8,580 bases of DNA from a virus (IMGVR_UViG_2547132270_000009); one strand, 5' to 3'; counted from the first letter of the stretch, positions 205-8,580 are shown. Numbers and translations are program-made. The notes: generated from the sequence alone by a model not told the origin.

Positions 205-426
205 CTGTTCACCTTTTGAGATTTTCCCTTTTTATTCATGATGTTAAGGGGTGAACAGTTTCACAAAAACTATTCACCAACTGTTCACCACTGTTCACCC
301 TTAAGCTCAATAAACAATCAAAAAGGTGAACAGTGAATAGTTTGGTGAACAGTTCATAAATAACTGTTCACCCTATAATATACTGATATAAAAGACATTT
401 ATGATAGGGTGAACAGTGGTGAACAG
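205..426. repeat. iteron array, putative origin of replication of the element (nine 9-bp GGTGAACAG/CTGTTCACC repeats around an AT-rich tract)
   Basis: Exact 9-mers seen directly: forward GGTGAACAG at 250-258, 325-333, 344-352, 408-416, 418-426; reverse CTGTTCACC at 205-213, 281-289, 291-299, 364-372; degenerate copies at 273-279 and 334-340. An AT-rich block sits at 373-405. The array lies immediately 3' of the helicase gene. The core TGTTCACC matches, as far as I recall, the P4 type I iteron bound by the alpha protein. Confidence 0.75.
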
Positions 427-439
427 TTATTCCATAAGT

Positions 440-2245
440 TTAATTTTTTCCATCGTCATTTGTGACCGATGCACATGATGGCATCCAGTCTTCTGAATCC
501 TCTGTAAGGGTCACATTTGAACGCAAACCGTGCTTCGTTTTCCGTTTCATATACTCCCTGCCATATTCCGCCATTGCCCCCGGCATATCTTTACCGAAGC
601 GCGTCAGTGTTACAGGTTTACCGAATCCGTGTGCCCTCATATATGCCAGATAGGCGTGATAAAGATACCTGCGCGGACTGAACGGAATAATTTCGGCATT
701 ACCCACTAACAGACCATCACACATTACCGACGACATGAGATAGCCGCAGAAGTCCACCAGCGAATCGCCCTCGCGTTTTATCACCAGTGCTTCTTCTGAT
801 TTCTGCTGCTCATACAGCAGGCGTTTAGCTTCGTCCTGGTCAGAAAAACGAGTAAGCAGGTGGCGAATCACAACCGCCAGCTCTCCTTCTATTTTTTCTG
901 CCAGCATGGGGTCGCGTTCGTTTTCCGGTACAACCTCCGAAAAATTGAATATCACCCGACGACGTGAGATCCCCCCGCTGCGGTCACTGAATGACATGGC
1001 GTTATTGTTCACCGCCAGCACGACCGCCTGAATGCGTGTTGAGTAGGGGGCTTTATGCTTCGGGTCGATTGCCACCTTGTCACCGCCTGTAATGGCCTTA
1101 ATTCCTGCGCCATCACCAGCGTAGCGGGTCATATCCGGCATGATAATCAGCGAAAATCCAACCACTAACGCGCGTTCCCTGGCATCTTCCAGCGCCTTCA
1201 TGCTTGCCGATACCGTGTTGGCCTTACCCGCCAGCATGGTGCAAATCTCCGCCATTACGCTTTTACCGCTTCCACCCGGCCCCGTTACCTCAAGAAATAA
1301 CTGCCAGTCGTATCGGTTCGCCAGCACCATGAATAACGCCGCCAGTACGCGATCCGCTTTACGGTCATTCTCAGCCACCGAACGGCGCAACCATTTCCAG
1401 AAATTCGGCGCATGCGTTGCCAGCGTTTCCCCCTCTGCTGGCGGGCTGAACGGTAATTCACTGGCAATTAACAGCCAGTCGTTTTTGTCATGCTCCCGAA
1501 AATCGCCTGTCCGGGTATCAAAAACACCGTTACTGAATCCAATCAGGTTACGGGCGGTATTCCCCATTACGGGCAAACTTAACTTCATTGTATCGACCGC
1601 CGATTTGATGGCGTTCTGCGAATAACTGATCTCCGCATCAATAAAAATCTGCGCCATAGCCCGCTGTAACTCTTTATCCTGTACCGGCTCCCATACAACG
1701 CCGTTGTAGTGGTGAACGGTGTCAGAGTCCGCATTGATTGCCAGTTCACCGCCATAACGTGCCAGGAGAACTTCGCCGCGCTGGCTTGCTCCCATCTGGT
1801 TAAGCGCCAGTGGTGCGGCGCTGTCTTCTGTTTTTTTCTTAACAGGAAGCTGAATAACCAGACCATCAGAAAGATTCTGGCGCTCACGCTCCAGATATTC
1901 GTGCCAGTTCTCCCGCTTCTGGCTGTGCATTCCCTCAGGGTAATAATTCGCATCCCGTACACCTGCCACCGCCAGCTTTTGCCCGATGGCATTAATATTT
2001 GACGGCTTGATGTGGCCTGCCTTGTACAGCCGGACACAATAGCGACCATCGTCGATAATTTTCAGGCCTGCCAGTTCGTCAAGCTGGCTGTCTCCCAGCC
2101 ATACAGGCGGAACATTGTCGCCAGCAAGTCGCCCGTCCTGCTCCTGCCATTGTTTCGCGTGCGCCCAGGCATCACTACCCGCAAAAATAATGACTTCGGT
2201 CATTTTGTCGTGCGGCTGTTTTTTCAGATTCGGTGCCAGTTTCAT
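440..2245 (-). CDS. replication protein, SF3-family helicase / primase-like (P4 alpha-like or PICI Pri-Rep-like), 601 aa
   Basis: 601-aa ORF with AGGGG Shine-Dalgarno 6 nt before the ATG at 2245. Walker A VTGPGGSGKS, Walker B-like SLIIMPDM, SF3 motif C VVLAVNNN and an arginine finger region SRRRVIFNF are all visible in the translation. Adjacent iteron array fits an initiator and its origin. Confidence 0.85.
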   Translation of the reverse strand: MKLAPNLKKQPHDKMTEVIIFAGSDAWAHAKQWQEQDGRLAGDNVPPVWLGDSQLDELAGLKIIDDGRYCVRLYKAGHIKPSNINAIGQKLAVAGVRDANYYPEGMHSQKRENWHEYLERERQNLSDGLVIQLPVKKKTEDSAAPLALNQMGASQRGEVLLARYGGELAINADSDTVHHYNGVVWEPVQDKELQRAMAQIFIDAEISYSQNAIKSAVDTMKLSLPVMGNTARNLIGFSNGVFDTRTGDFREHDKNDWLLIASELPFSPPAEGETLATHAPNFWKWLRRSVAENDRKADRVLAALFMVLANRYDWQLFLEVTGPGGSGKSVMAEICTMLAGKANTVSASMKALEDARERALVVGFSLIIMPDMTRYAGDGAGIKAITGGDKVAIDPKHKAPYSTRIQAVVLAVNNNAMSFSDRSGGISRRRVIFNFSEVVPENERDPMLAEKIEGELAVVIRHLLTRFSDQDEAKRLLYEQQKSEEALVIKREGDSLVDFCGYLMSSVMCDGLLVGNAEIIPFSPRRYLYHAYLAYMRAHGFGKPVTLTRFGKDMPGAMAEYGREYMKRKTKHGLRSNVTLTEDSEDWMPSCASVTNDDGKN

Positions 2246-2541
2246 TTTTTGCCCCTGAATGCGTTAATCATGCTTTTCATTTTCTGAATATTTGCCCGTG
2301 CCTTTGCGTTGCTGGTGGGCTGTTTGCGTGGTGTGGCCTGTATCAGTGAAAAATCACGCCGGAACTGATAAACAGGCATCACGCAGTCGTAGCCGTACCC
2401 ATCACGGCGGTAAGTAACGCACCGTCCGGCAATACTTTTAATCGTTACCGTGCCACCGTAGTTATCCCGGAAAATATCGCCGGGGCGGATTTCAGGCCGA
2501 GCGGGGCCGCTGGCAGTAAAGCCAGAATTTTTCTTTTTCAT
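2242..2541 (-). CDS. hypothetical small protein (99 aa), translationally coupled to the helicase gene
   Basis: ATG at 2541; its stop overlaps the helicase start as ATGA (2242-2245). Basic C-terminus. Fourth of five small genes in the operon. No family recognised. Confidence 0.55.
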   Translation of the reverse strand: MKKKNSGFTASGPARPEIRPGDIFRDNYGGTVTIKSIAGRCVTYRRDGYGYDCVMPVYQFRRDFSLIQATPRKQPTSNAKARANIQKMKSMINAFRGKK

Positions 2542-2545
2542 GGTT

Positions 2546-2746
2546 TTATTTTCCTGTCAGTGATTCCGGTTTTATTCCGGCGCGAATACAGGCTTCAGAA
2601 AAAAAAGCCAGAGAACCAACAACCTCATCATTTCTCAGTCGGCATTGTGATTTCACTTTCCCTTTATCCAGGTAAACCAGTACGCGTCCGGTGAAATCAT
2701 CTGGCACATTAAGCACTACGGGTACATGCGCTTCATGATTATGCAT
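2546..2746 (-). CDS. hypothetical small protein (66 aa)
   Basis: ATG at 2746 preceded by a GGAGGA Shine-Dalgarno; the start overlaps the upstream gene's stop by 8 nt (ATGCATAA). Ends 4 nt before the next start. Confidence 0.5.
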   Translation of the reverse strand: MHNHEAHVPVVLNVPDDFTGRVLVYLDKGKVKSQCRLRNDEVVGSLAFFSEACIRAGIKPESLTGK

Positions 2747-2972
2747 GGCTTACATCCTCCGTGAATTTTCTTCTGTAACGCGTCTCTGCCACATATTCCG
2801 CATAGTCCGACGCAATACTAAGAATCATTTCACCCTCTGACTTGTAGCCACTGGTATTGATAAGAAAATATGCAGCTTTCATCATGTCAGCAACGCTCAA
2901 CAATGCGCCCGCTGCATCTTCCGGTGCGCCATCAAATTCCCGTTTCAGGGAATTAAAACGATCATCACGCAT
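2739..2972 (-). CDS. hypothetical small protein (77 aa); may be the downstream half of a frameshifted larger gene
   Basis: ATG at 2972 lies 2 nt downstream of a G9 run (coding-strand G, plus-strand C at 2975-2983) that could serve as a Shine-Dalgarno. Acidic, helical-looking protein. Confidence 0.5.
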   Translation of the reverse strand: MRDDRFNSLKREFDGAPEDAAGALLSVADMMKAAYFLINTSGYKSEGEMILSIASDYAEYVAETRYRRKFTEDVSHA

Positions 2973-3205
2973 AACCCCCCCCCATTTTCACAATCAGCAA
3001 TCAGGATAGCCCTGGCCTCATTCAGTGCCATATCAGCGGTAAGCTGTGCGTAAGCCAGCGAATGCGGGATTATCGCCCCTGTATATTCCGTCTCTCTGGT
3101 AATGTGTTTTTCTGCGGTTGCTGCCGTGCATGAAATATCAATCAGCGCGTGCATCAGCGTTTTGATGGCTTCGGCGGCTGCGCCCGGACGGGTGTTATTG
3201 CACAT
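2945..3205 (-). CDS. hypothetical small protein (86 aa as read); reads through the G9 tract and stops shortly after
   Basis: ATG at 3205 with AGGGGGTG Shine-Dalgarno; overlaps the Icd-like stop by 8 nt (ATGTGCAATAA). Ends CENGGGLCVMIVLIP. The first ATG of the raw ORF (3247) is rejected because it overlaps the Icd-like gene. Confidence 0.45.
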   Translation of the reverse strand: MCNNTRPGAAAEAIKTLMHALIDISCTAATAEKHITRETEYTGAIIPHSLAYAQLTADMALNEARAILIADCENGGGLCVMIVLIP

Positions 3206-3395
3206 GATGCACCCCCTGACGAATACGGGCGGCGAATACAGCGACACAACCGGACGGGCAACGGTTACGCGCTTCGCGTTCTGTCCAGGCGGTCACGTGG
3301 ATAATTTGAGAATCTCCGGCACTCAGTGCCAGAAAACGCCACACAAAGGCGGTTTGTGTGTGCGCTAGTCGTGGGGTATGCTGTCTTACAGCCAT
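3195..3395 (-). CDS. Icd-like small protein (P4 kil/icd-type host cell division inhibitor family), 66 aa
   Basis: ATG at 3395 with GAGGTAA Shine-Dalgarno 5 nt upstream. Translation MAVRQHTPRLAHTQTAFVWRFLALSAGDSQIIHVTAWTEREARNRCPSGCVAVFAARIRQGVHHVQ fits the F-W-R-F ... EREAR ... AARI pattern I recall for Icd-like proteins of P4-like elements. First gene of the minus-strand operon. Confidence 0.6.
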   Translation of the reverse strand: MAVRQHTPRLAHTQTAFVWRFLALSAGDSQIIHVTAWTEREARNRCPSGCVAVFAARIRQGVHHVQ

Positions 3396-3496
3396 AATCG
3401 TTACCTCATTTAACGGTTTGGTTAGAAGCCCCGTTACTGCTCCAACAGTGCGGGGCTTCGTCGTTTCAATTGCTGAATTGCATGTATCAGCCCTTG

Positions 3497-3550
3497 TGGT
3501 ATTCAGATTACATTTTGGTGAATACCAGTTCAAGTCTTTTTTGGTATTCA
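3497..3550. promoter_or_regulatory. divergent promoter/operator region: three TGGTATTCA sites and a candidate sigma70 promoter for the minus-strand operon
   Basis: TGGTATTCA at 3497-3505 (direct), 3519-3527 (inverted) and 3542-3550 (direct); the first two form an inverted repeat with a 13-bp spacer. On the minus strand, -35 TTGAAC (plus 3528-3533), 17-bp spacer, -10 TAATCT (plus 3505-3510) overlap these sites. Confidence 0.4.
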
Positions 3551-3594
3551 CTTTTGTATTACACTGCATCCCGTTATTAATCGGAGGTGCAAAC

Positions 3595-3900
3595 ATGTCC
3601 ACGAGTTCTGTTAACAATAAGTCACAGCAACTGAATGCCAGATTTCCACATGAAGTAGTGAGTGGCATTGAGGCATCCCTACAGCCTGGGGAAACTAAAG
3701 CGAATTTTATAGTTACGGCTGTACGCGGTGAAATCGCCCGCCGCCAAGCAGAAGGAAGAGGAGAAAATCCCCTGGTTTCTTCGCTCGATGCACTGGCGCA
3801 GGTGGAAAAAATCGGTGTCAAAGCAGCCGAGGAGATCGGGCAACTCGTCACCGTCGCGCGTGAAGAACTCCAGCGCCGCAAGGCCAAAGAACAGGAGTAG
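3595..3900 (+). CDS. ribbon-helix-helix DNA-binding protein, YlcI/YnfO (DUF3950)-like; candidate regulator of the element
   Basis: ATG at 3595 with GGAGGTG Shine-Dalgarno; 101 aa. N-terminal LNARFPHEVVSGIEASL...KANFIVTAVRGEIARR fits the RFP...NF...RR pattern of YlcI/YnfO-type proteins; charged helical C-terminus. It is the only + strand gene inside the element, divergent from the operon. Confidence 0.7.
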   Translation: MSTSSVNNKSQQLNARFPHEVVSGIEASLQPGETKANFIVTAVRGEIARRQAEGRGENPLVSSLDALAQVEKIGVKAAEEIGQLVTVAREELQRRKAKEQE

Positions 3901-4394
3901 TTGATCAGCACCGGGCGCCCAGAAAAAATCGTATCAGTCGCGCCACCAGCAAAATTTTTTGCTTTCCGGACAGCGTGGCCAACGACATTTTGCAGCAAAA
4001 TATTCTGCATTTCTGGCGTGCTGTAGTAACGGTGATCAGCGCCTTCACATTGAACGAACTTGTCGCTAAAATTCACCCATATAGCAAACATCGCGGTGCT
4101 GTAGGTAATTCGTTCACAAAGGCGCTCCGGCAACGGGGCGCTTTTTGTTTTTATTAGTTTGTAGAAACCTGACTCAGAGATAATGCTCATATTCTGATTG
4201 CCGTCAGGGGTGTAAGTTAAATTTACTCCCTTTTTATCATCAAACATCTGCAACGCTCTGGCGTTAACAATATTGGTTTCACTCCCGCCAGTAAGGCCGG
4301 AAATAACCGGAATAATTTCGGCAAAATTTTGCAGATTCTGTTTTTCAGGACGAACGAAGCCCCGCCCTTGTTCGGGAGAATATCCAGTATTCAT
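3900..4394 (-). CDS. Bro-N-like (antirepressor-type) protein; 3' end unresolved, possibly a pseudogene
   Basis: ATG at 4394. The first 120 or so residues contain Bro-N-like blocks (FDDKKGV...NMSIISESGFYKLIKTKSAPLPERL). The frame has no stop until 3195, running antisense through the RHH gene and into the Icd-like gene, so the real C-terminus cannot be set from sequence; 3900 is an approximate boundary. Both other minus frames hit stops near 3903-3930. Confidence 0.35.
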
Positions 4395-4446
4395 GGTTAG
4401 ATCTCTGTATTAGTGGATGGGTGGCGGCTGTGTGCCGCCAGCCTGA

Positions 4447-4635
4447 TTAGTGAACTGCCTCGCAGCTTTCCTTCCATGCCAGAACTTCGGATAAAGACCA
4501 GCCAACGGAACGACCGCCGAGCTTACGCCGTGATGGGAATTGTCCGGTTTTTTCCAGGCGGTACCGACATGAACGGCTCAGGCCTGTAAGTTGCTGACAT
4601 TCTTTTTCACGTATAAAGCGATCTGTGCTTAACAC
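4447..4635 (-). CDS. alpA: AlpA-family phage regulatory protein (excisionase/activator-like), 62 aa
   Basis: GTG at 4635 preceded by an AGGGGGA Shine-Dalgarno. Translation ...ECQQLTGLSRSCRYRLEKTGQFPSRRKLGGRSVGWSLSEVLAWKE fits the AlpA helix-turn-helix pattern. Upstream in-frame ATGs (up to 4803) lack a ribosome-binding site. Confidence 0.8.
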   Translation of the reverse strand: MLSTDRFIREKECQQLTGLSRSCRYRLEKTGQFPSRRKLGGRSVGWSLSEVLAWKESCEAVH

Positions 4636-4930
4636 AATTCCCCCTTTGATATTTCTTAAAGAGTTATTTGGTGTCCTATTGTGTTGTGGTGCGTCGGATT
4701 GTGTCAGGGTGTTTATGGAATGGCAAACACTGGCGGCGGTCATTTTACAGAAGTGTGGTAATGAGAATAAAAACTCTTTTAATTCATTGTGGTGCAAAGG
4801 CATAAAATTCTGTTTTTACGCCTTTTTTACATGTTTTTAAGAGTGATTCGCCAATGTACAAAAAGCCAGTAAAACGACTGAAAATCAACTTTTTAGGGTG
4901 TCAGTCAGATGTTAATCAAGTTTGTTCCAG

Positions 4931-4980
4931 ATTGTTCGCCGTTGTTCGTCGTGGTGTCTCGTTGTTTCACGTTGTGTCAG
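4931..4980. repeat. five tandem degenerate 10-bp repeats (consensus GTTGTTCGYC) just downstream of the integrase stop
   Basis: Consecutive 10-mers attgttcgcc / gttgttcgtc / gtggtgtctc / gttgtttcac / gttgtgtcag at 4931-4980, one helical turn apart. On the minus strand they read as GAACAA-type motifs. Related GTGTCAG motifs at 4701-4707 and 4897-4903. Confidence 0.5.
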
Positions 4981-5002
4981 TTCTAAAAAATCGCAAAAAA
5001 AA

Positions 5003-6250
5003 TTATATTTCTCTGGCTATTGGCAGTGTGGTTACGTTTTTGTGAGTACCCGCCAGTATCTCTAACCGCTCTGTCCACATGTCCAGCGCATTACGTTTCG
5101 CATCGAGATAACGGGAGTGGTTATAGACTCGCTGCATCCCTGGCATCTGGTGAGCGGTGAGTTGTTCGACAATATGCGGATCCACGCCTAAATCGTTCAG
5201 CATCGTGGTAAACGTGCGCCGTATATCGTGTAGTGACCAGTGCGGATGGTTTAATTTTTTGTGCATGAATCTGCCGTATTGCGACACACTGGCTTCCTGT
5301 TTCAGTTCCCCGAGTAATAGCCCTGTGTGTCTGTTCTGCTCCACCAGCTGCGTGACGAACGGTAAAATGCTTTCCGGTATTGGCCTGAATATGGCGACCT
5401 TCGTTTTGCTGTGCTCTTTCGGTACTGTCCAGAGCATTTCCTTAAAATCCCACTCCCTGATCTCCGATAATCTCAGTTCTCCGGTTCGGCAGCCGAACAC
5501 AATCAGGAGGCGGATTAGTGCGCTGTAGTAGGGCGGGAATATTTTTTTATCCAGCGCCTGTAATAATTCGCCAAGTTCTTTGTTGCTCAGCACGCGTTCG
5601 CTTATGCCTGGTTTTTTGCCAACGTCCACCACGTTAAGATCATCCAGAACGTTACTGACTGCGTAGCGACGTTTACGGCAGAACTTAAGCGCCTGTTTAC
5701 ACGCCTGCATCATGTGACCAGACGTTACAGGGGATTTTTTGCGTATCCGGTCAAAACAGGCCAGCCAGTGACGTAACTCGCATTTATCCAGTGGCATATT
5801 GCCAATATGCTGTATGACGTGATTATTCAGGCGGCTTTTCAGGCATACGTAATCGACACGGTTTTCCTTTACGTGCATTTCCAGCCAGTAGCTGATCGCA
5901 TCACCCACCGTTACCGGCTTTAGTGCTTCCTGTATGGAGTAATTAAGCTCATGGCGTGGATTTTTTCCTTCTGCCAGCCATGCGCGACACTGTGCCGCTT
6001 TTTCCCTGGCTGCTTTCAGGCTCAGATCAGGATAATTTCCCAGCTTCAGGCGTTCCGGTGATACCTGGCGTCCAGCTCCTGCCCTGTAGGTGAAATACCA
6101 GGTTAACAAGCCGCTGGTGGAATGCCTGACGCTCAGGTTTCCACCGTCATTAAGAAATGTGGTTTTTGGGGCTGGTGTGCCGTTGATTTTTCTTAGCTGT
6201 GTATCGCTCAGTTTGTTAAGTGCTCTGCTCATAATTTTGAATCCGGTCAT
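5003..6250 (-). CDS. int: tyrosine-type site-specific integrase, P4-like family
   Basis: About 415 aa. N-terminal arm-binding domain (DGGNLSVRHSTSGLLTWYFTYRAG...LGNYPDLSLKAAREKA) resembles P4-type integrases; C-terminal catalytic motifs HDIRRTF and YNHSRYLDAKR (tyrosine nucleophile). Start is ATG at 6250 or GTG at 6253; no strong Shine-Dalgarno for either. Confidence 0.93.
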   Translation of the reverse strand: MTGFKIMSRALNKLSDTQLRKINGTPAPKTTFLNDGGNLSVRHSTSGLLTWYFTYRAGAGRQVSPERLKLGNYPDLSLKAAREKAAQCRAWLAEGKNPRHELNYSIQEALKPVTVGDAISYWLEMHVKENRVDYVCLKSRLNNHVIQHIGNMPLDKCELRHWLACFDRIRKKSPVTSGHMMQACKQALKFCRKRRYAVSNVLDDLNVVDVGKKPGISERVLSNKELGELLQALDKKIFPPYYSALIRLLIVFGCRTGELRLSEIREWDFKEMLWTVPKEHSKTKVAIFRPIPESILPFVTQLVEQNRHTGLLLGELKQEASVSQYGRFMHKKLNHPHWSLHDIRRTFTTMLNDLGVDPHIVEQLTAHQMPGMQRVYNHSRYLDAKRNALDMWTERLEILAGTHKNVTTLPIAREI

Positions 6251-6254
6251 CACA

Positions 6255-6368
6255 ATTAACTACACCATTAACTACACCGATCATTGCACAAGGGGGTACA
6301 ACGTGGAACAAGTTGGAACAAGAAAATTGCAATGAGCTTAAAAATCAAAAACATAATGAACAACGTGG
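6255..6368. repeat. direct repeats between the integrase start and the junction; candidate arm-type recombinase binding sites
   Basis: ATTAACTACACC twice in tandem (6255-6266, 6267-6278); TGGAACAAG twice at 10-bp spacing (6304-6312, 6314-6322); ACAACGTGG twice (6298-6306, 6360-6368). Confidence 0.45.
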
Positions 6369-6397
6369 CACATTATGAAACAGCAAAAAACACTAAT

Positions 6398-6577
6398 TTA
6401 TAAAAATCCGCTATTGATAATGGCGCTGCGTACGCGATCACGCGCTTCCTTTACTGTCGTTTCTGGTAAGCCCACCATTGTTAATCCGGGTAGACCTTTG
6501 CTGATATGTACCTCAACAGTGATCGGCGGAGCATTTACTCCCAGAGCTGCGCGAGTATGAACAATTGATAGTGACAT
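6398..6577 (-). pseudogene. yifB: yifB/comM (Mg-chelatase-like AAA+ ATPase) 5' fragment, truncated after about 59 codons by the inserted element
   Basis: ATG at 6577 with GGAGGA Shine-Dalgarno. Translation MSLSIVHTRAALGVNAPPITVEVHISKGLPGLTMVGLPETTVKEARDRVRSAIINSG matches the YifB/ComM N-terminus from memory, then ends FL-stop at 6398-6400 where the full-length protein (about 500 aa) should continue. The junction is estimated at about 6400-6412. Confidence 0.8.
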
Positions 6578-6849
6578 AAGTCCTCCTTGAGTCACCATTA
6601 TGAACACAATCATTCGCTGCTGTAGCCAGCAAAATTACGACTTTTAGCGGCTGATTCCTGTTTATTTTTGCAATCGATATTGAGTTGTATTGGTGATGGA
6701 ATGATGCTCGCAAAAATGTTGCGGACAAATATTGAGCTGTTTTGTGGAGAACAAGAAACATACGGAAATTGAATTTTTTTCACTCTTCTTTTTTTATATA
6801 AAAAACAATGATCTCTATCGAAATTATTATGTGCATCATAAAAATCGGC

Positions 6850-6895
6850 CAAAAAATATCTTGTGTTATTCGCAAAATCTATGGTACCTCTTTAG
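6850..6895 (+). promoter_or_regulatory. ilvL-ilvG operon promoter region
   Basis: Candidate -35 TTGTGT (6861-6866) and -10-like TATGGT (6880-6885) 40-70 bp upstream of ilvL, but the spacing between them is only about 13 bp, so exact element assignment is uncertain. AT-rich upstream sequence (6760-6850) fits UP/IHF-type elements. Confidence 0.4.
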
Positions 6896-6929
6896 ACATT
6901 CCTTCGAACAAGATGCAAGAAAAGACAAA

Positions 6930-7028
6930 ATGACAGCCCTTCTACGAGTGATTAGCCTGGTCGTGATTAGCGTGGTGGTGATTATTATCCCACCGTGCGG
7001 GGCTGCACTTGGACGAGGAAAGGCTTAG
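6930..7028 (+). CDS. ilvL: ilvGMEDA operon leader peptide (32 aa)
   Basis: Translation MTALLRVISLVVISVVVIIIPPCGAALGRGKA, rich in Ile/Val/Leu control codons, recognised as the ilvL leader peptide; TAG stop at 7026-7028. Confidence 0.95.
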   Translation: MTALLRVISLVVISVVVIIIPPCGAALGRGKA

Positions 7029-7050
7029 AGATCAAGCCTTAACGAACTAA

Positions 7051-7085
7051 GACCCCCGCACCGAAAGGTCCGGGGGTTTTTTTTG
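7051..7085 (+). terminator. ilv attenuator, rho-independent terminator
   Basis: GC-rich stem ACCCCCG (7052-7058) pairing with CGGGGGT (7071-7077) around a GAAA loop, followed by a T-run (7077-7084), between ilvL and ilvX/ilvG. Confidence 0.9.
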
Positions 7086-7114
7086 ACCTTAAAAACATAA
7101 CCGAGGAGCAGGCA

Positions 7115-7165
7115 ATGAATAACAGCACAAAATTCTGTTTCTCAAGATTCAGGACGGGGAACTAA
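7115..7165 (+). CDS. ilvX: small protein IlvX (16 aa)
   Basis: ATG at 7115 after GAGGAGCAGG; translation [16 protein letters not shown] then TAA, matching the 16-aa IlvX small protein as I recall it; ends 2 nt before ilvG. Confidence 0.8.
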
Positions 7166-7167
7166 CT

Positions 7168-8580
7168 ATGAATGGCGCACAGTGGGTGGTACATGCGTTG
7201 CGGGCACAGGATGTGAACACCGTTTTCGGTTATCCGGGAGGCGCAATTATGCCGGTTTACGATGCATTGTATGACGGCGGCGTGGAACACTTGCTGTGCC
7301 GACATGAGCAGGGCGCGGCAATGGCGGCAATTGGCTATGCCCGTGCTACCGGCAAAACCGGCGTATGTATCGCCACGTCTGGTCCGGGTGCAACCAACCT
7401 GATAACCGGGCTTGCGGACGCGCTGTTAGATTCCATCCCTGTCGTTGCCATCACCGGTCAGGTGTCCGCACCGTTCATCGGCACCGACGCATTTCAGGAA
7501 GTGGATGTCCTGGGATTGTCATTAGCCTGTACCAAACACAGCTTCCTGGTACAGTCGCTGGAAGAGTTGCCACGCATCATGGCTGAAGCATTCGACGTTG
7601 CCCGCTCAGGCCGTCCTGGTCCGGTTCTGGTCGATATCCCAAAAGATATCCAGTTAGCCATCGGCGATCTGGAACCGTGGTTCACCACCGTTGAAAACGA
7701 AGTAACTTTTCCACATGCCGAAGTCGAGCAAGCGCGCCAGATGCTGGCAAAAGCGCAAAAACCGATGCTGTATGTTGGCGGCGGCGTAGGTATGGCACAG
7801 GCAGTTCCGGCTTTGCGTGAATTTCTCGCTGCCACAAAAATGCCTGCCACCTGCACGCTGAAAGGGCTGGGCGCAGTTGAAGCGGATTATCCGTACTATC
7901 TGGGGATGCTTGGGATGCACGGCACCAAAGCGGCGAACTTTGCGGTGCAGGAATGTGACCTGCTGATCGCTGTGGGCGCACGTTTTGATGACCGGGTAAC
8001 CGGCAAACTAAACACCTTCGCACCGCATGCCAGCGTTATCCATATGGATATCGACCCGGCAGAAATGAACAAGCTGCGTCAGGCGCATGTGGCATTACTG
8101 GGTGATTTAAATGCTCTGTTACCGGCATTACAGCAGCCGTTAAATATCAATGACTGGCAGCAGCACTGCGCGCAGCTGTGTAGTGAACATGCCTGGCGTT
8201 ACGACCATCCCGGAGACGCTATCTATGCGCCGTTGTTGTTAAAACAACTGTCGGATCGTAAACCTGCGGATTGCGTTGTGACCACAGATGTGGGGCAGCA
8301 CCAGATGTGGGCCGCGCAGCACATCGCCCACACTCGCCCGGAAAATTTCATCACTTCAAGCGGCTTAGGCACTATGGGTTTTGGTTTACCGGCGGCGGTT
8401 GGCGCACAAGTCGCACGACCGAACGATACCGTCGTTTGTATCTCTGGTGACGGCTCTTTCATGATGAATGTGCAAGAGCTGGGCACCGTAAAACGCAAGC
8501 AGTTACCGTTGAAAATCGTCTTACTCGATAACCAACGGTTAGGGATGGTTCGACAATGGCAGCAACTGTTTTTCCTGGAA
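7168..8580 (+). CDS. ilvG: acetolactate synthase II (AHAS II) large subunit, N-terminal 471 codons; continues past the window
   Basis: Translation [81 protein letters not shown]... is a thiamine-diphosphate enzyme recognised as IlvG. Frame is open from 7168 to the window end with no internal stop. Confidence 0.96.

What the first reader, a model, noticed from the sequence alone, without database searches (positions are those of the whole stretch)
2242..3395. Five tightly overlapping small genes of unknown function feeding into the helicase gene
Icd-like (66 aa), then 86, 77, 66 and 99 aa ORFs are chained with 8-nt, 4-nt and ATGA overlaps and each has its own Shine-Dalgarno, ending in an ATGA overlap with the 601-aa helicase. 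Only the first has a recognisable family. The position mirrors the P4 left operon (kil, eta, cI, epsilon, cnr, alpha), where such genes control helper derepression, immunity and copy number. These are the best candidates in the window for an undescribed helper-interference, anti-repressor or host-manipulation module.
Basis: partly seen in the sequence, partly recalled or inferred. Interest (0 to 1): 0.7.

Follow-up and report, generated by a model that had tools for sequence, protein, structure and literature searches.

The report
Phage-satellite early operon, slippery poly-G joint
The five small genes are real and form the start of the control-and-replication operon of a P4/PICI-type phage satellite; this is a common, largely uncharacterised kind of module, with one unexpected detail: two of the genes are joined by a run of nine G's whose length varies between strains and so fuses or splits them.

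Summary
The five ORFs exist, all on the minus strand. They have the stated sizes and their own ribosome-binding sites, and all are under purifying selection (dN/dS 0.24-0.36). The junction details are partly wrong: real overlaps are 11, 28 and 8 nt, then a 4-nt gap, then ATGA. The operon matches the P4 left operon at its anchors: AlpA/Vis, Kil (the "Icd-like" 66-aa gene, nested at the end of a 399-codon stop-free eta-like frame), an alpha-type primase-helicase, and TGTTCACC iterons. Close relatives carry capsid and terS genes, so the element is a Gram-negative PICI. Icd-like and DUF4222 (ORF99, a Tudor/SH3-like barrel) are constant anchors. ORF86, ORF77 and ORF66 are swappable cassettes from uncharacterised families with no homology to P4 epsilon, orf151 or cnr. 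ORF86 and ORF77 are joined by a G9 run. In relatives this run is G7-G11: G7/G10 fuse them into one 154-155-aa protein, G8 gives two coupled genes, and G9 (this window) gives two genes with an altered tail on the first. All states occur in complete E. coli genomes. Functions remain inferred. One published screen (ECOR61) links a similarly arranged Icd-like locus (family identity of its small genes untested) to phage-triggered cell death. This is a new member of a known kind, of moderate interest.

The parts
3195..3395 (-). Kil/Icd-like gene (66 aa), first translated gene of the operon proper; SD GAGG 8 nt upstream
   Evidence: NCBIfam NF033153 phage_ICD_like, 66.1 bits against a cutoff of 25. 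The same model hits the P4 ORF 8168..8584 at aa 85-132, E 7.8e-21. dN/dS 0.31.
3195..4394 (-). eta-like stop-free frame (399 codons) that ends in the Kil/Icd-like gene. It carries a Bro-N remnant near its N-terminus and runs antisense through the RHH gene.
   Evidence: in 115 non-redundant relatives the in-phase frame is open for a median of 254 codons upstream of Icd, against 4 and 8 codons in the other two frames. Amino-acid sequence is poorly conserved. Bro-N Pfam E 0.02; PHROG anti-repressor hits about 1e-5.
2945..3205 (-). ORF86: N-half helical-hairpin protein (phrog_5146). In this window it carries the G9-frame tail LCVMIVLIP.
   Evidence: phrog_5146 2.4e-26 and phrog_2512 positions 1-77. 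dN/dS 0.24. AF2 helices 9-37 and 39-73.
2975..2983 (-). G9 homopolymer (C9 on the + strand) at the ORF86/ORF77 junction. It doubles as the SD of ORF77, and its length is polymorphic (G7-G11) among relatives.
2739..2972 (-). ORF77: C-half helical-hairpin protein (phrog_24341)
   Evidence: phrog_24341 2.7e-49 and phrog_2512 positions 78-154. dN/dS 0.24. AF2 helices 98-116 and 122-149 of the fused form.
2546..2746 (-). ORF66: minority cassette (phrog_340) in the variable slot upstream of DUF4222. It contains a polymorphic T8 run (A8 on the + strand, 2599..2606).
   Evidence: phrog_340 2.5e-21. Only 44 homologues (every one that carries a source name is E. coli, Escherichia or Enterobacteriaceae), many truncated. 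Most relatives carry an unrelated 77/69-aa phrog_2196 gene in this slot. T-run is T7/T8/T9.
2242..2541 (-). ORF99: DUF4222 protein, a Tudor/SH3-like beta-barrel plus a basic C-terminal helix; ATGA-coupled to the replicase gene
440..2245 (-). P4 alpha-type (D5/SF3) primase-helicase, 601 aa
   Evidence: Pfam D5_N, DUF5906, Pox_D5. phrog_864 1e-189. phmmer against P4 alpha 2e-151.
205..432 (.). Iteron cluster (ori/crr-like): 9 exact copies of the P4 type-1 repeat TGTTCACC/GGTGAACA in both orientations, plus variants
3494..3551 (.). Divergent control region: three copies of TGGTATTCA/TGAATACCA (inverted and direct) bracketing a weak TTGAAC-17-TAATCT promoter-like site that faces the Kil-like gene
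   Evidence: repeats I1, I3, D1. The promoter-like site was read. GGTGAATA at 3517 equals a P4 iteron variant.
3425..3459 (-). GC-rich 9-bp hairpin in the leader, 29 nt upstream of the Kil-like start codon
   Evidence: I2. In relatives, hairpins with different stem sequences sit at the same distance of 29-30 nt.
3595..3900 (+). Divergent ribbon-helix-helix-like regulator (YlcI/YnfO family, 101 aa), antisense inside the eta-like frame
   Evidence: NCBIfam NF041551 1.3e-16. phrog_6522 1.1e-45. Its replacements are more conservative than in the antisense frame. A homologue lies in the same antisense position in Klebsiella cf-PICI vB_KppS-Ant.
4447..4635 (-). AlpA/Vis-type regulator (62 aa from GTG 4635)
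   Evidence: Pfam Phage_AlpA 1.3e-17. phmmer against P4 orf88 1.6e-13. A 189-nt CDS is annotated in relative L001.
5003..6253 (-). P4-type tyrosine integrase
   Evidence: Pfam Arm-DNA-bind_3 and Phage_integrase.

Best explanation
The region is the promoter-proximal part of the early ('left') operon of a P4-related, Gram-negative PICI-type phage satellite. The satellite is integrated in comM next to ilvL.

Gene order is int, alpA, [eta-like translated leader with an antisense RHH regulator], kil-like (Icd-like), ORF86, ORF77, ORF66, DUF4222, alpha-type primase-helicase, iterons.

Shown here:
- All five small ORFs are conserved, selected, translationally chained genes.
- The two ends of the array (Kil/Icd-like and DUF4222+replicase) are constant.
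- The middle (ORF86/ORF77 pair; ORF66 or an alternative phrog_2196 gene) is exchanged as cassettes at highly conserved junction sequences.

Inferred by homology with P4 (mechanism as summarised in PMC10111431, which cites Forti et al. 1999; the 65-aa length of Kil is from my recollection of that paper, which I could not open):
- Translation of the long eta-like frame and of kil keeps the transcript from terminating prematurely, so the downstream genes and the replicase are expressed only on induction.
- The Kil/Icd-like protein arrests host growth or division.

Inferred from position and variability only:
- ORF86 and ORF77 are two helical hairpins that work together, probably as a heterodimer. 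They sit in the slot P4 uses for epsilon and are the best candidates for a helper- or host-specific interaction factor.
- DUF4222 sits in the slot of cnr and is a replicase accessory or modulator.

The G-run joining ORF86 and ORF77 is a mutable spacer, and every length still yields both halves. G7/G10 give one fused protein. G8/G11 give two genes coupled by ATGCGTGA. G9, as in this window, gives two genes, with the first carrying a 9-residue hydrophobic tail and overlapping the second by 28 nt.
For: Anchors homologous to P4:
- AlpA/Vis, Kil/NF033153 and alpha.
- TGTTCACC iterons.

PICI context:
- Relatives with a 99% identical primase carry SSB, major capsid, decoration protein and terS.
- The induced 16.5-kb vB_KppS-Ant has the same layout: AlpA, long Icd ORF, two small ORFs, primase.

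Real genes:
- PHROG matches, dN/dS 0.24-0.36, SD motifs.

Cassette structure:
- In 80 loci ascertained by DUF4222, Icd is present in 77/80 and primase in 80/80, but ORF86 in only 35, ORF66 in 27 and ORF77 in 19.
- There are three alternative slot genes.
- Junction DNA is invariant while the proteins diverge to 46% identity.

eta-like leader:
- The in-phase frame is open for a median of 254 codons, against 4-8 in the other frames, without amino-acid conservation.
- PMC10111431 summarises the mechanism: eta translation prevents termination, and Kil is a truncated Eta.

Poly-G:
- Tract tallies.
- Frame consequences.
- Fused proteins are widespread, and some exact sequences recur on up to 42 contigs.
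- Complete RefSeq genomes: G7 29, G8 19, G9 10, G10 1, G11 1. PGAP switches between one and two CDSs accordingly.
- One genome has a G7 copy and a G9 copy.
- 4 of 7 groups with identical +-200-nt flanks differ in tract length.
- The A6 run at the next junction is invariant in 97/98.

Phenotype hint:
- In ECOR61, Tn5 suppressors of phage-gene-triggered cell death map to an Icd-like gene and the two small overlapping genes downstream of it. [quoted passage not shown]
Against: - There are no expression, interaction or phenotype data for this element.
- No CI/C4 immunity RNA was detected, so P4-type immunity control is not demonstrated. A protein (RHH) repressor may replace it.
- ORF86, ORF77, ORF66 and ORF99 show no homology to epsilon, orf151 or cnr, so functional equivalence rests on position alone.
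- The AF2 model of the fused ORF86-77 protein is low confidence (pLDDT 56) and gives only generic helical matches. The heterodimer idea is untested.
- The Tudor/SH3-like fold of DUF4222 is too generic to assign a partner.
- The eta-like frame is antisense to a real gene, so part of its openness could be a shadow-ORF effect. The indel-phase test was uninformative.
- The window ends 440 nt past the primase, so the packaging module of this particular element is unseen.
Confidence: 0.72

Rival explanations
1. The array (Icd-like effector, small adaptor proteins, replicase) is primarily an abortive-infection or superinfection-exclusion system. A protein of an incoming phage triggers it and the Kil/Icd-like protein stops cell growth. 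The variable middle genes act as sensors or antitoxin-like modulators. This is compatible with satellite biology rather than exclusive of it.
For: - ECOR61 screen: suppressor insertions fall in an Icd-like gene and the two adjacent small genes. Six linked genes including a primase are required, and removal of Icd-like abolishes the cell death.
- In ECOR15, the AlpA, Icd-like and primase genes of a P4 satellite are hit in an analogous screen.
- Cassette-like diversity of the middle genes fits sensor evolution.
Against: - No PADLOC defence-model hit for any of the proteins.
- The identity of the ECOR61 small genes with ORF86/77/66 was not testable here.
- The ECOR61 effect was weak when reconstituted.
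- Toxicity on derepression is equally expected as a by-product of satellite induction.
Confidence: 0.3
2. ORF86/ORF77 is one gene that is simply broken in this window by a +/-1 frameshift in the G-run, either a pseudogene or a homopolymer sequencing error. There would then be four genes, not five.
For: - phrog_2512 (154 aa) covers both ORFs end to end.
- Hundreds of fused 154-155-aa proteins exist.
- Homopolymers are error-prone, and the T8 run in ORF66 is also polymorphic.
Against: - Distant relatives are separate ~75-aa N-half and C-half proteins with no Gly run, so two genes is the ancestral state.
- The split G8 form is the commonest (31/80 unique contexts).
- G9 recurs in 18/80 unique contexts and in 10 of the 60 listed complete RefSeq genomes.
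- ORF77 keeps its own ATG and G-rich SD in every state, and both halves stay intact with dN/dS 0.24.
Confidence: 0.1
3. The G-run is a programmed recoding site. Ribosomal -1/+1 slippage or RNA-polymerase slippage on G8-G10 yields a fixed mixture of split and fused products from any allele. That would explain why tract length is not constrained.
For: - G GGG GGG is formally a slippery heptamer.
- All three frames are tolerated in nature, with a unimodal length distribution centred on 8.
- The homopolymer is preserved (interrupted in only about 10% of copies) although synonymous GGN codons could break it.
Against: - No stimulatory structure downstream: the fold z-score is -0.72.
- Conservation of the tract is also explained by its SD role and by the junction being a recombination joint.
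- There are no protein data.
Confidence: 0.12

Closest known systems
Bacteriophage P4 left operon (vis - eta/kil [cI RNA] - epsilon - orf151 - cnr - alpha; NC_001609)
   Same: - Same order and strand logic.
- An AlpA/Vis regulator upstream.
- A 65-66-aa Kil/Icd-like gene with an internal SD, nested at the end of a long open frame.
- Small genes chained by 8-nt-type overlaps.
- An alpha-type primase-helicase and TGTTCACC iterons.
   Different: - No detectable CI/C4 RNA.
- Epsilon (PF25738), orf151 and cnr (DUF5375) are replaced by unrelated families: phrog_5146, phrog_24341, phrog_340 and DUF4222.
- A divergent RHH gene lies antisense inside the eta-like frame.
- The replicase is 601 aa, not 777.
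- Relatives carry capsid/terS genes rather than sid/delta/psu.
Gram-negative PICIs / capsid-forming PICIs (EcCICFT073, EcCIEDL933; zone model of Mageeney et al. 2023, PMC10111431)
   Same: - int, alpA and pri are unidirectional.
- ori lies downstream of pri.
- A Bro-network gene sits between alpA and the replication genes.
- Relatives with a 99% identical primase encode SSB, major capsid, decoration protein and terS.
   Different: - The small genes between the Bro/eta-like gene and the primase have not been characterised in the papers I could read.
- The packaging zone of this particular element lies outside the window.
ECOR61 prophage-encoded cell-death locus (Silas et al., bioRxiv 10.1101/2023.04.06.535777)
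   Same: An Icd-like gene followed by two small overlapping hypothetical genes and a linked DNA primase, all needed for the phenotype.
   Different: - The ECOR61 Icd-like CDS is annotated with a longer N-terminus (about 121 aa).
- Whether its small genes belong to the ORF86/77/66 families could not be tested.
- The trigger (phage orf24) is unknown for this element.
Homopolymeric contingency loci (phase variation by slipped-strand mispairing, e.g. in Neisseria, Haemophilus, Campylobacter; from general knowledge)
   Same: A G run of 8 or more at a coding junction whose length differs between otherwise identical sequences and changes the reading frame.
   Different: - No frame switches a gene off. 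All three frames deliver both protein halves (fused, coupled, or tail-modified).
- No within-strain switching is shown. A 7-genome clonal series is uniformly G7.
P1 immI operon (c4 RNA - icd - ant), the source of the 'Icd' name (from general knowledge)
   Same: A small division-inhibitor-type ORF whose translation gates expression of downstream overlapping genes.
   Different: - No C4 RNA hit.
- The downstream genes are not Ant homologues. The Bro-N anti-repressor remnant lies upstream instead.

Membership tests
P4-type left (early) operon | AlpA/Vis-type regulator upstream, same strand | tested here: met
   Pfam PF05930 1.3e-17; phmmer against P4 orf88 1.6e-13
P4-type left (early) operon | Kil (about 65 aa) nested in phase at the end of a long translated frame (eta) | tested here: met
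   NF033153 hits both the window's 66-aa ORF and the last ~50 residues of the P4 ORF 8168..8584. There is a 399-codon open frame in the window, and a median of 254 open codons in 115 relatives.
P4-type left (early) operon | CI/C4-type immunity RNA with seqA/seqC targets in the leader | tested here: not met
   Rfam cmscan at E<=1 gives no C4 or isrK match anywhere in the window
P4-type left (early) operon | epsilon helper-derepression protein (Pfam PF25738) | tested here: not met
   No Pfam hit for ORF86/77/66/99, while P4 epsilon hits PF25738 at 9e-51. hhalign of ORF86 against epsilon gives 32%, then 5%, then 1.5% as the profiles improve.
P4-type left (early) operon | cnr copy-number regulator (DUF5375) immediately upstream of alpha | tested here: not met
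   The slot is occupied by DUF4222. hhalign of ORF99 against cnr gives probability 0.1%.
P4-type left (early) operon | alpha-type primase-helicase and its TGTTCACC iterons | tested here: met
   phmmer against alpha 2e-151. 9 exact TGTTCACC/GGTGAACA copies at 206-425. TIGR01613 is below its curated cutoff (97.9 < 108.7), so the primase part is divergent.
P4-like satellite (SatelliteFinder sense) | sid, delta, psu capsid-size/late-control genes | not testable with these tools
   The window ends 440 nt beyond the primase. Close relatives carry capsid/terS genes instead.
Gram-negative PICI | int, alpA and pri co-oriented, ori downstream of pri, Bro-network gene between alpA and pri | tested here: met
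   definition from PMC10111431
Gram-negative PICI | Helper-phage-dependent induction and packaging | not testable with these tools
   Needs experiment. vB_KppS-Ant, a relative with the same layout, was recovered as an 'induced prophage' particle genome.
Icd-like protein family (NF033153) | Score above the curated cutoff | tested here: met
   66.1 bits against a cutoff of 25
DUF4222 (PF13973) | Score above the gathering threshold | tested here: met
   84.3 bits against 27. The fold is a Tudor/SH3-like barrel.
Phase-variable contingency locus | Long homopolymer in or at a coding junction whose length changes the frame | tested here: met
   G9 at 2975..2983; frame outcomes
Phase-variable contingency locus | Length differs between otherwise identical or near-identical sequences | tested here: met
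   4 of 7 identical-flank groups differ. G7, G8 and G9 occur with 100% identical 45-nt flanks in complete genomes, including two copies in one genome.
Phase-variable contingency locus | High-frequency reversible switching within a clone, with a phenotype | not testable with these tools
   Assemblies only. Seven clonal genomes are all G7, which argues against very fast switching.
Programmed -1 ribosomal frameshift site | Slippery heptamer followed by a stimulatory RNA structure | tested here: inconclusive
   G GGG GGG is present, but the downstream fold is no better than shuffles (z -0.72)

The most novel reading that the evidence does not exclude
The poly-G joint is a selected three-state switch in an E. 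coli-group phage satellite. By slipping between G7/G10, G8 and G9 it converts a two-subunit helical factor, sitting in the epsilon (helper-derepression) slot, between three forms. These are a single fused chain, two stoichiometrically coupled chains, and an uncoupled pair with a hydrophobic tail on the first subunit. This would diversify, within a host population, how readily the satellite is induced or which helper or host target it engages (bet-hedging). It would act together with a P4-like 'translate-the-leader-to-avoid-termination' control that has been kept across PICIs even though the leader is antisense to a repressor gene.
Probability: 0.15. Interest if true: 0.65.

Novelty: new member of a known kind. 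Interest (0 to 1): 0.4.

Why it matters
How Gram-negative PICIs and P4-like satellites sense their helpers, arrest the host and start replication is understood mainly for P4 itself. This work shows three things:
- The P4 left-operon logic extends to a very common family of E. coli-group islands: a Kil nested in a translated eta-like leader, an alpha-type replicase, and the same iterons.
- The genes between Kil and the replicase are exchangeable cassettes from uncharacterised families. That pattern is expected for helper- or defence-facing factors.
- Two of these genes are linked by a length-variable G-run, which causes annotation pipelines to call them as one or two genes.

It gives concrete, cheap experiments: tagged G7/G8/G9 alleles, nonsense mutations in the leader, and gene deletions in transfer assays. 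It also links the module to a published phage-triggered cell-death phenotype. It does not reveal a new kind of system.

Tried and rejected
1. Pfam, NCBIfam and PADLOC for ORF86, ORF77 and ORF66: no hits.
2. PDB sequence search for ORF99, ORF66 and Icd-like at E<=10: nothing.
3. blastn ('distant' mode) of ORF86-77 DNA against 50,697 phage records: no match. tblastn of Icd-like against the same records: one record only.
5. ORF86 as a remote epsilon homologue: a first hhalign hit of 32% (IPH..Y..D..LNE motif) fell to 5% with an epsilon alignment. It fell to 1.5% with a more diverse ORF86 profile. Rejected.
6. DUF4222 against the P4 orf151 N-terminus (shared PG[DE]I[FY]R): probability 3.4%. Rejected.
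7. DUF4222-primase fusion as evidence of interaction: the 700-aa fusion in L002 is a single A6-to-A7 event, 1 of 98 junctions. Rejected.
8. Paralogy among the five families: all hhalign probabilities are 1.1% or less.
9. C4/CI RNA: none found.
10. Stimulatory structure for frameshifting: z -0.72.
11. Pattern scan of 100,044 species-representative genomes for the junction: 0 hits, so no taxonomic range beyond the strain collections could be established.
12. Indel-phase test of the eta-like leader: dominated by alignment noise, with only 19% of gaps a multiple of 3. Uninformative.
13. Counting exact G7/G8/G9 matches through the identity bands of 97-99-nt queries was confounded by partial matches. 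It was replaced by reading match spans.
14. Forti et al. 1999 (PMC94026) is not held in the library. Its content is cited through PMC10111431 and from my own recollection.

Full report
**Observation**

All the genes lie on the minus strand.
- Icd-like: 3195..3395, 66 aa
- ORF86: 2945..3205
- ORF77: 2739..2972
- ORF66: 2546..2746
- ORF99: 2242..2541
- 601-aa D5-type primase/helicase: 440..2245

Each start codon is preceded by an SD-like motif: GAGG, GGGGG, G9, GGAGG, AGGA, AGGGG.

- Icd/ORF86: 11-nt overlap
- ORF86/ORF77: 28-nt overlap
- ORF77/ORF66: 8-nt overlap
- ORF66/ORF99: 4-nt gap
- ORF99/primase: ATGA overlap

The ORFs are genuine genes. All five match PHROG families at 1e-21 to 1e-49. 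ORF99 is Pfam DUF4222. The Icd-like ORF passes NCBIfam NF033153. Pairwise dN/dS across relatives is 0.31, 0.24, 0.24, 0.24 and 0.36.

**Context**

Upstream on the same strand lie an AlpA-type regulator (4447..4635) and a P4-type integrase (5003..6253). Immediately downstream of the primase lies a cluster of GGTGAACAGT iterons at 205-432.

The island abuts a truncated comM/yifB and the ilvL leader. The chromosomal flank is only 93.4% identical to E. coli. The primase plus iteron region is 99.4% identical to E. coli islands. The host is therefore probably a non-coli Escherichia carrying a horizontally shared element.

Parts of the small-gene region match in 1483 of 5426 complete E. coli genomes. 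Annotated relatives read as follows:
- int, HTH (AlpA), YlcI/YnfO (+ strand), Icd-like
- three hypothetical genes, DUF4222, primase
- one hypothetical gene, SSB, major capsid, head decoration, terS

This is a Gram-negative PICI / capsid-forming-PICI-like layout.

**Relation to P4**

I fetched P4 (NC_001609).
- The window's primase matches P4 alpha at 2e-151, AlpA matches orf88/Vis at 1.6e-13, and the integrase matches at 2e-14.
- NF033153 hits the P4 'cI ORF' (8168..8584) at residues 85-132 with E 7.8e-21.
- From my recollection of Forti et al. 1999, cited as ref. 40 in PMC10111431, the last 65 residues of that ORF are P4 Kil.
- The P4 alpha-binding type-1 repeat TGTTCACC occurs 9 times at 206-425 in the window. 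The variant GGTGAATA occurs once in the control region at 3517.

None of ORF86, ORF77, ORF66 or ORF99 resembles epsilon, orf151 or cnr.
- phmmer best E values are 0.37-1.3.
- There is no Pfam PF25738 or DUF5375 hit.
- An initial hhalign hint of ORF86 against epsilon (32%) collapsed to 5% and then 1.5% with better profiles.
- No C4/CI RNA is detectable.

The P4 analogy therefore holds for architecture and anchor genes, but not for the four unassigned proteins.

**The first gene is Kil nested in an eta-like frame**

The 66-aa ORF is the end of an uninterrupted 399-codon frame, 3195..4394. In 115 non-redundant relatives the frame in phase with Icd is open for a median of 254 codons upstream. The other two frames are open for 4 and 8 codons. 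Fifty-seven per cent of loci have at least 200 open codons, against 0-3% for the other frames.

The translated extension looks like non-protein sequence apart from a Bro-N/anti-repressor remnant. It runs antisense through a genuine divergent RHH-like gene (3595..3900):
- NF041551 1.3e-16 and phrog_6522 1e-45.
- Its amino-acid replacements are more conservative than those of the antisense frame (-0.25 against -1.07).
- The same antisense arrangement is present in the Klebsiella element vB_KppS-Ant.

This is what the P4 mechanism predicts. According to PMC10111431, Kil is a truncated Eta, full-length eta is translated only from the upstream late promoter, and 'Eta translation prevents termination'. 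Selection for an open frame without selection on its product fits that model. The mechanism itself is inferred here, not shown. An indel-phase test was uninformative.

**Constant anchors, variable middle**

Loci ascertained by the ORF86/77 junction show the order Icd, ORF86, ORF77, slot gene, DUF4222, primase. Per-gene identities range from 40 to 100%.

Loci ascertained independently by DUF4222 show Icd-like in 77/80 and a replicase in 80/80. ORF86 is present in only 35, ORF66 in 27 and ORF77 in 19.

The slot upstream of DUF4222 holds one of the following:
- a 77-aa or 69-aa helical protein, both phrog_2196
- the unrelated 66-aa protein of this window, phrog_340

ORF66 has only 44 homologues (every one that carries a source name is E. 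coli, Escherichia or Enterobacteriaceae), many of them truncated. Truncation occurs at a T8 run that is itself T7/T8/T9 in relatives.

Junction DNA is almost invariant while the flanking proteins diverge to 46% identity. This applies to both GATTGTGAAAAT-Gn-TTATGCGTGATGATCG and TTCAGGGGYAAAAAATGA. I read these as the recombination joints of a mosaic module.

The five families are unrelated to one another.

**The poly-G joint**

phrog_2512 (154 aa) aligns ORF86 to positions 1-77 and ORF77 to positions 78-154. The joint is a G9 run.

In relatives the run lengths in 80 unique contexts are as follows:
- G8: 31
- G9: 18
- G7: 17
- G10: 4
- G11: 2
- interrupted: 8

The frame outcomes are as follows:
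- G7/G10 give one 154-155-aa protein (...DCEN-GG(G)V-MRDD...).
- G8/G11 give 79-80 aa plus 77 aa, coupled by ATGCGTGA.
- G9 gives 86 aa with the tail LCVMIVLIP plus 77 aa, with a 28-nt overlap.

Evidence that the variation is real rather than assembly error:
- A search with an artificial fusion returned 461 hits. The top 120 are all fused E. coli proteins, and some exact sequences recur on 20-42 contigs.
- In complete RefSeq genomes the match spans give G7 29, G8 19, G9 10, G10 1 and G11 1 among 60 listed records. PGAP annotates one CDS for G7/G10 and two for G8/G9.
- Strain TUM9812 has a G7 copy and a G9 copy with identical 45-nt flanks.
- Four of seven groups with identical +-200-nt flanks differ in tract length.
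- The A6 run at the DUF4222/primase junction is invariant in 97 of 98 loci.

A 7-genome clonal series is uniformly G7, so switching is not extremely fast.

Only 50 clusters at 50% identity exist among 1.84 billion proteins. Distant members are separate N-half or C-half proteins without a Gly run. Two genes is therefore the ancestral state, and the G-run is a feature of the E. coli-group module.

No downstream structure supports programmed frameshifting. The unimodal length distribution around 8, with all frames common, indicates that every frame is tolerated. This is plausible because ORF77 keeps its own ATG and a G-rich SD in every state.

**Structures**

DUF4222 always precedes the replicase gene, whatever the replicase type: 466-471, 584 or 601-604 aa. 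The single 700-aa fusion is a one-off A7.

**Function**

No tool result gives a direct function.

One published screen is relevant. In ECOR61, cell death triggered by a phage accessory gene (orf24) is suppressed by insertions in an Icd-like gene. Insertions in the two small overlapping genes immediately downstream of it also suppress it. [quoted passage not shown] In ECOR15, a P4 satellite's AlpA, Icd-like and primase genes were hit in an analogous screen.

My working model:
- A translated eta-like leader and the Kil-like gene gate expression of the operon.
- Kil arrests the host.
- The ORF86/ORF77 pair and the slot cassette are helper- or host-facing specificity factors.
- DUF4222 modulates the replicase, which acts on the TGTTCACC iterons.

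The first and last steps rest on homology with P4. The middle steps rest on position and variability only.

**Verdict**

The module is common and already sits within a described PICI architecture. The four proteins remain uncharacterised rather than newly discovered.

The two points worth follow-up are the length-variable poly-G joint that fuses or splits two genes, and the conserved stop-free leader antisense to a regulator.

Interest 0.4; a new member of a known kind.

Noticed in passing
window 3195-4394 (-), overlapping 3595-3900 (+): The Icd-like gene ends a 399-codon stop-free frame that runs antisense through a real RHH (YlcI/YnfO) gene. The same frame is open for a median of 254 codons in 115 relatives, without amino-acid conservation. 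It looks like a P4 eta analogue whose translation, not its product, is under selection. PGAP annotates only the 66-aa gene.
   Followed up: partly
window 205-432: Dense iteron cluster directly after the primase stop codon. It holds 9 exact copies of TGTTCACC/GGTGAACA, the P4 alpha type-1 repeat, in both orientations, plus a TATTCACC variant. It is probably the ori/crr-like site. Rfam reported spurious plant microRNA 'matches' here because of the inverted repeats.
   Followed up: yes
window 3494-3551: Three copies of TGGTATTCA/TGAATACCA bracket a weak TTGAAC-17-TAATCT promoter-like site between the RHH gene and the Kil-like gene. They could be RHH operators. Alternatively, because GGTGAATA is a P4 iteron variant, they could be replicase sites.
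   Followed up: partly
window 3425-3459 (-): GC-rich 9-bp hairpin (GAAGCCCCG-N17-CGGGGCTTC) 29 nt upstream of the Kil-like ATG. In relatives, hairpins with different stem sequences (AAGCCCG, ACGCCCCG, GAGGCTG, AACGCCCTG) sit at the same 29-30-nt distance. This suggests a conserved leader structure. It does not match Rfam C4.
   Followed up: partly
window 3340-3360 (-): Terminator-like hairpin (CACACAAA-CCGCC-TTTGTGTG followed by GCGTTTTCTG) lies inside the first 20 codons of the Kil-like gene. It could be the point where an untranslated transcript stops.
   Followed up: no
window 2599-2606 (A8 on +, T8 on -), inside ORF66: A second polymorphic homopolymer. Relatives have T7, T8 or T9, which gives the truncated 50- and 57-aa ORF66 variants that are frequent in the protein database.
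   Followed up: partly
window 3975-4157 (+) and 4118-4155 (+): A 60-aa + strand ORF ends at a strong intrinsic terminator (12-bp stem plus a T-run). It lies downstream of the RHH gene and inside the eta-like frame. The hairpin ('KSAPLPER' in the antisense translation) is conserved in most relatives.
   Followed up: no
window 4122-4247 (-): Remnant of a Bro-N anti-repressor domain near the start of the eta-like frame (Pfam E 0.02; PHROG anti-repressor families about 1e-5). Relative L052 has an intact Bro-N domain at the same place.
   Followed up: partly
window 6398-6613 (-) and 6260-8580: The island abuts the first ~58 codons of comM/yifB (Mg-chelatase-like), next to ilvL/ilvG, so comM appears to be the integration target. 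No tRNA gene is present. The chromosomal flank is 93.4% identical to every E. coli genome, whereas the island's primase region is 99.4% identical to E. coli islands. This implies transfer across species.
   Followed up: partly
L002 (NZ_CM143726.1) 4241-6343: DUF4222 and the primase are annotated as one 700-aa protein. The cause is an A7 instead of A6 at the ATGA junction, a single case among 98 loci.
   Followed up: yes
L173 (LR881103.1, 'Escherichia phage vB_KppS-Ant'): This 16.5-kb record, deposited as a phage from an induced prophage, has terS, terL, capsid, portal, integrase, AlpA, a long Icd ORF, two small ORFs and a primase. No tail-fibre, baseplate, tail-tube or sheath genes are annotated, only one CDS labelled tape measure protein. 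It looks like a capsid-forming PICI rather than a phage.
   Followed up: partly
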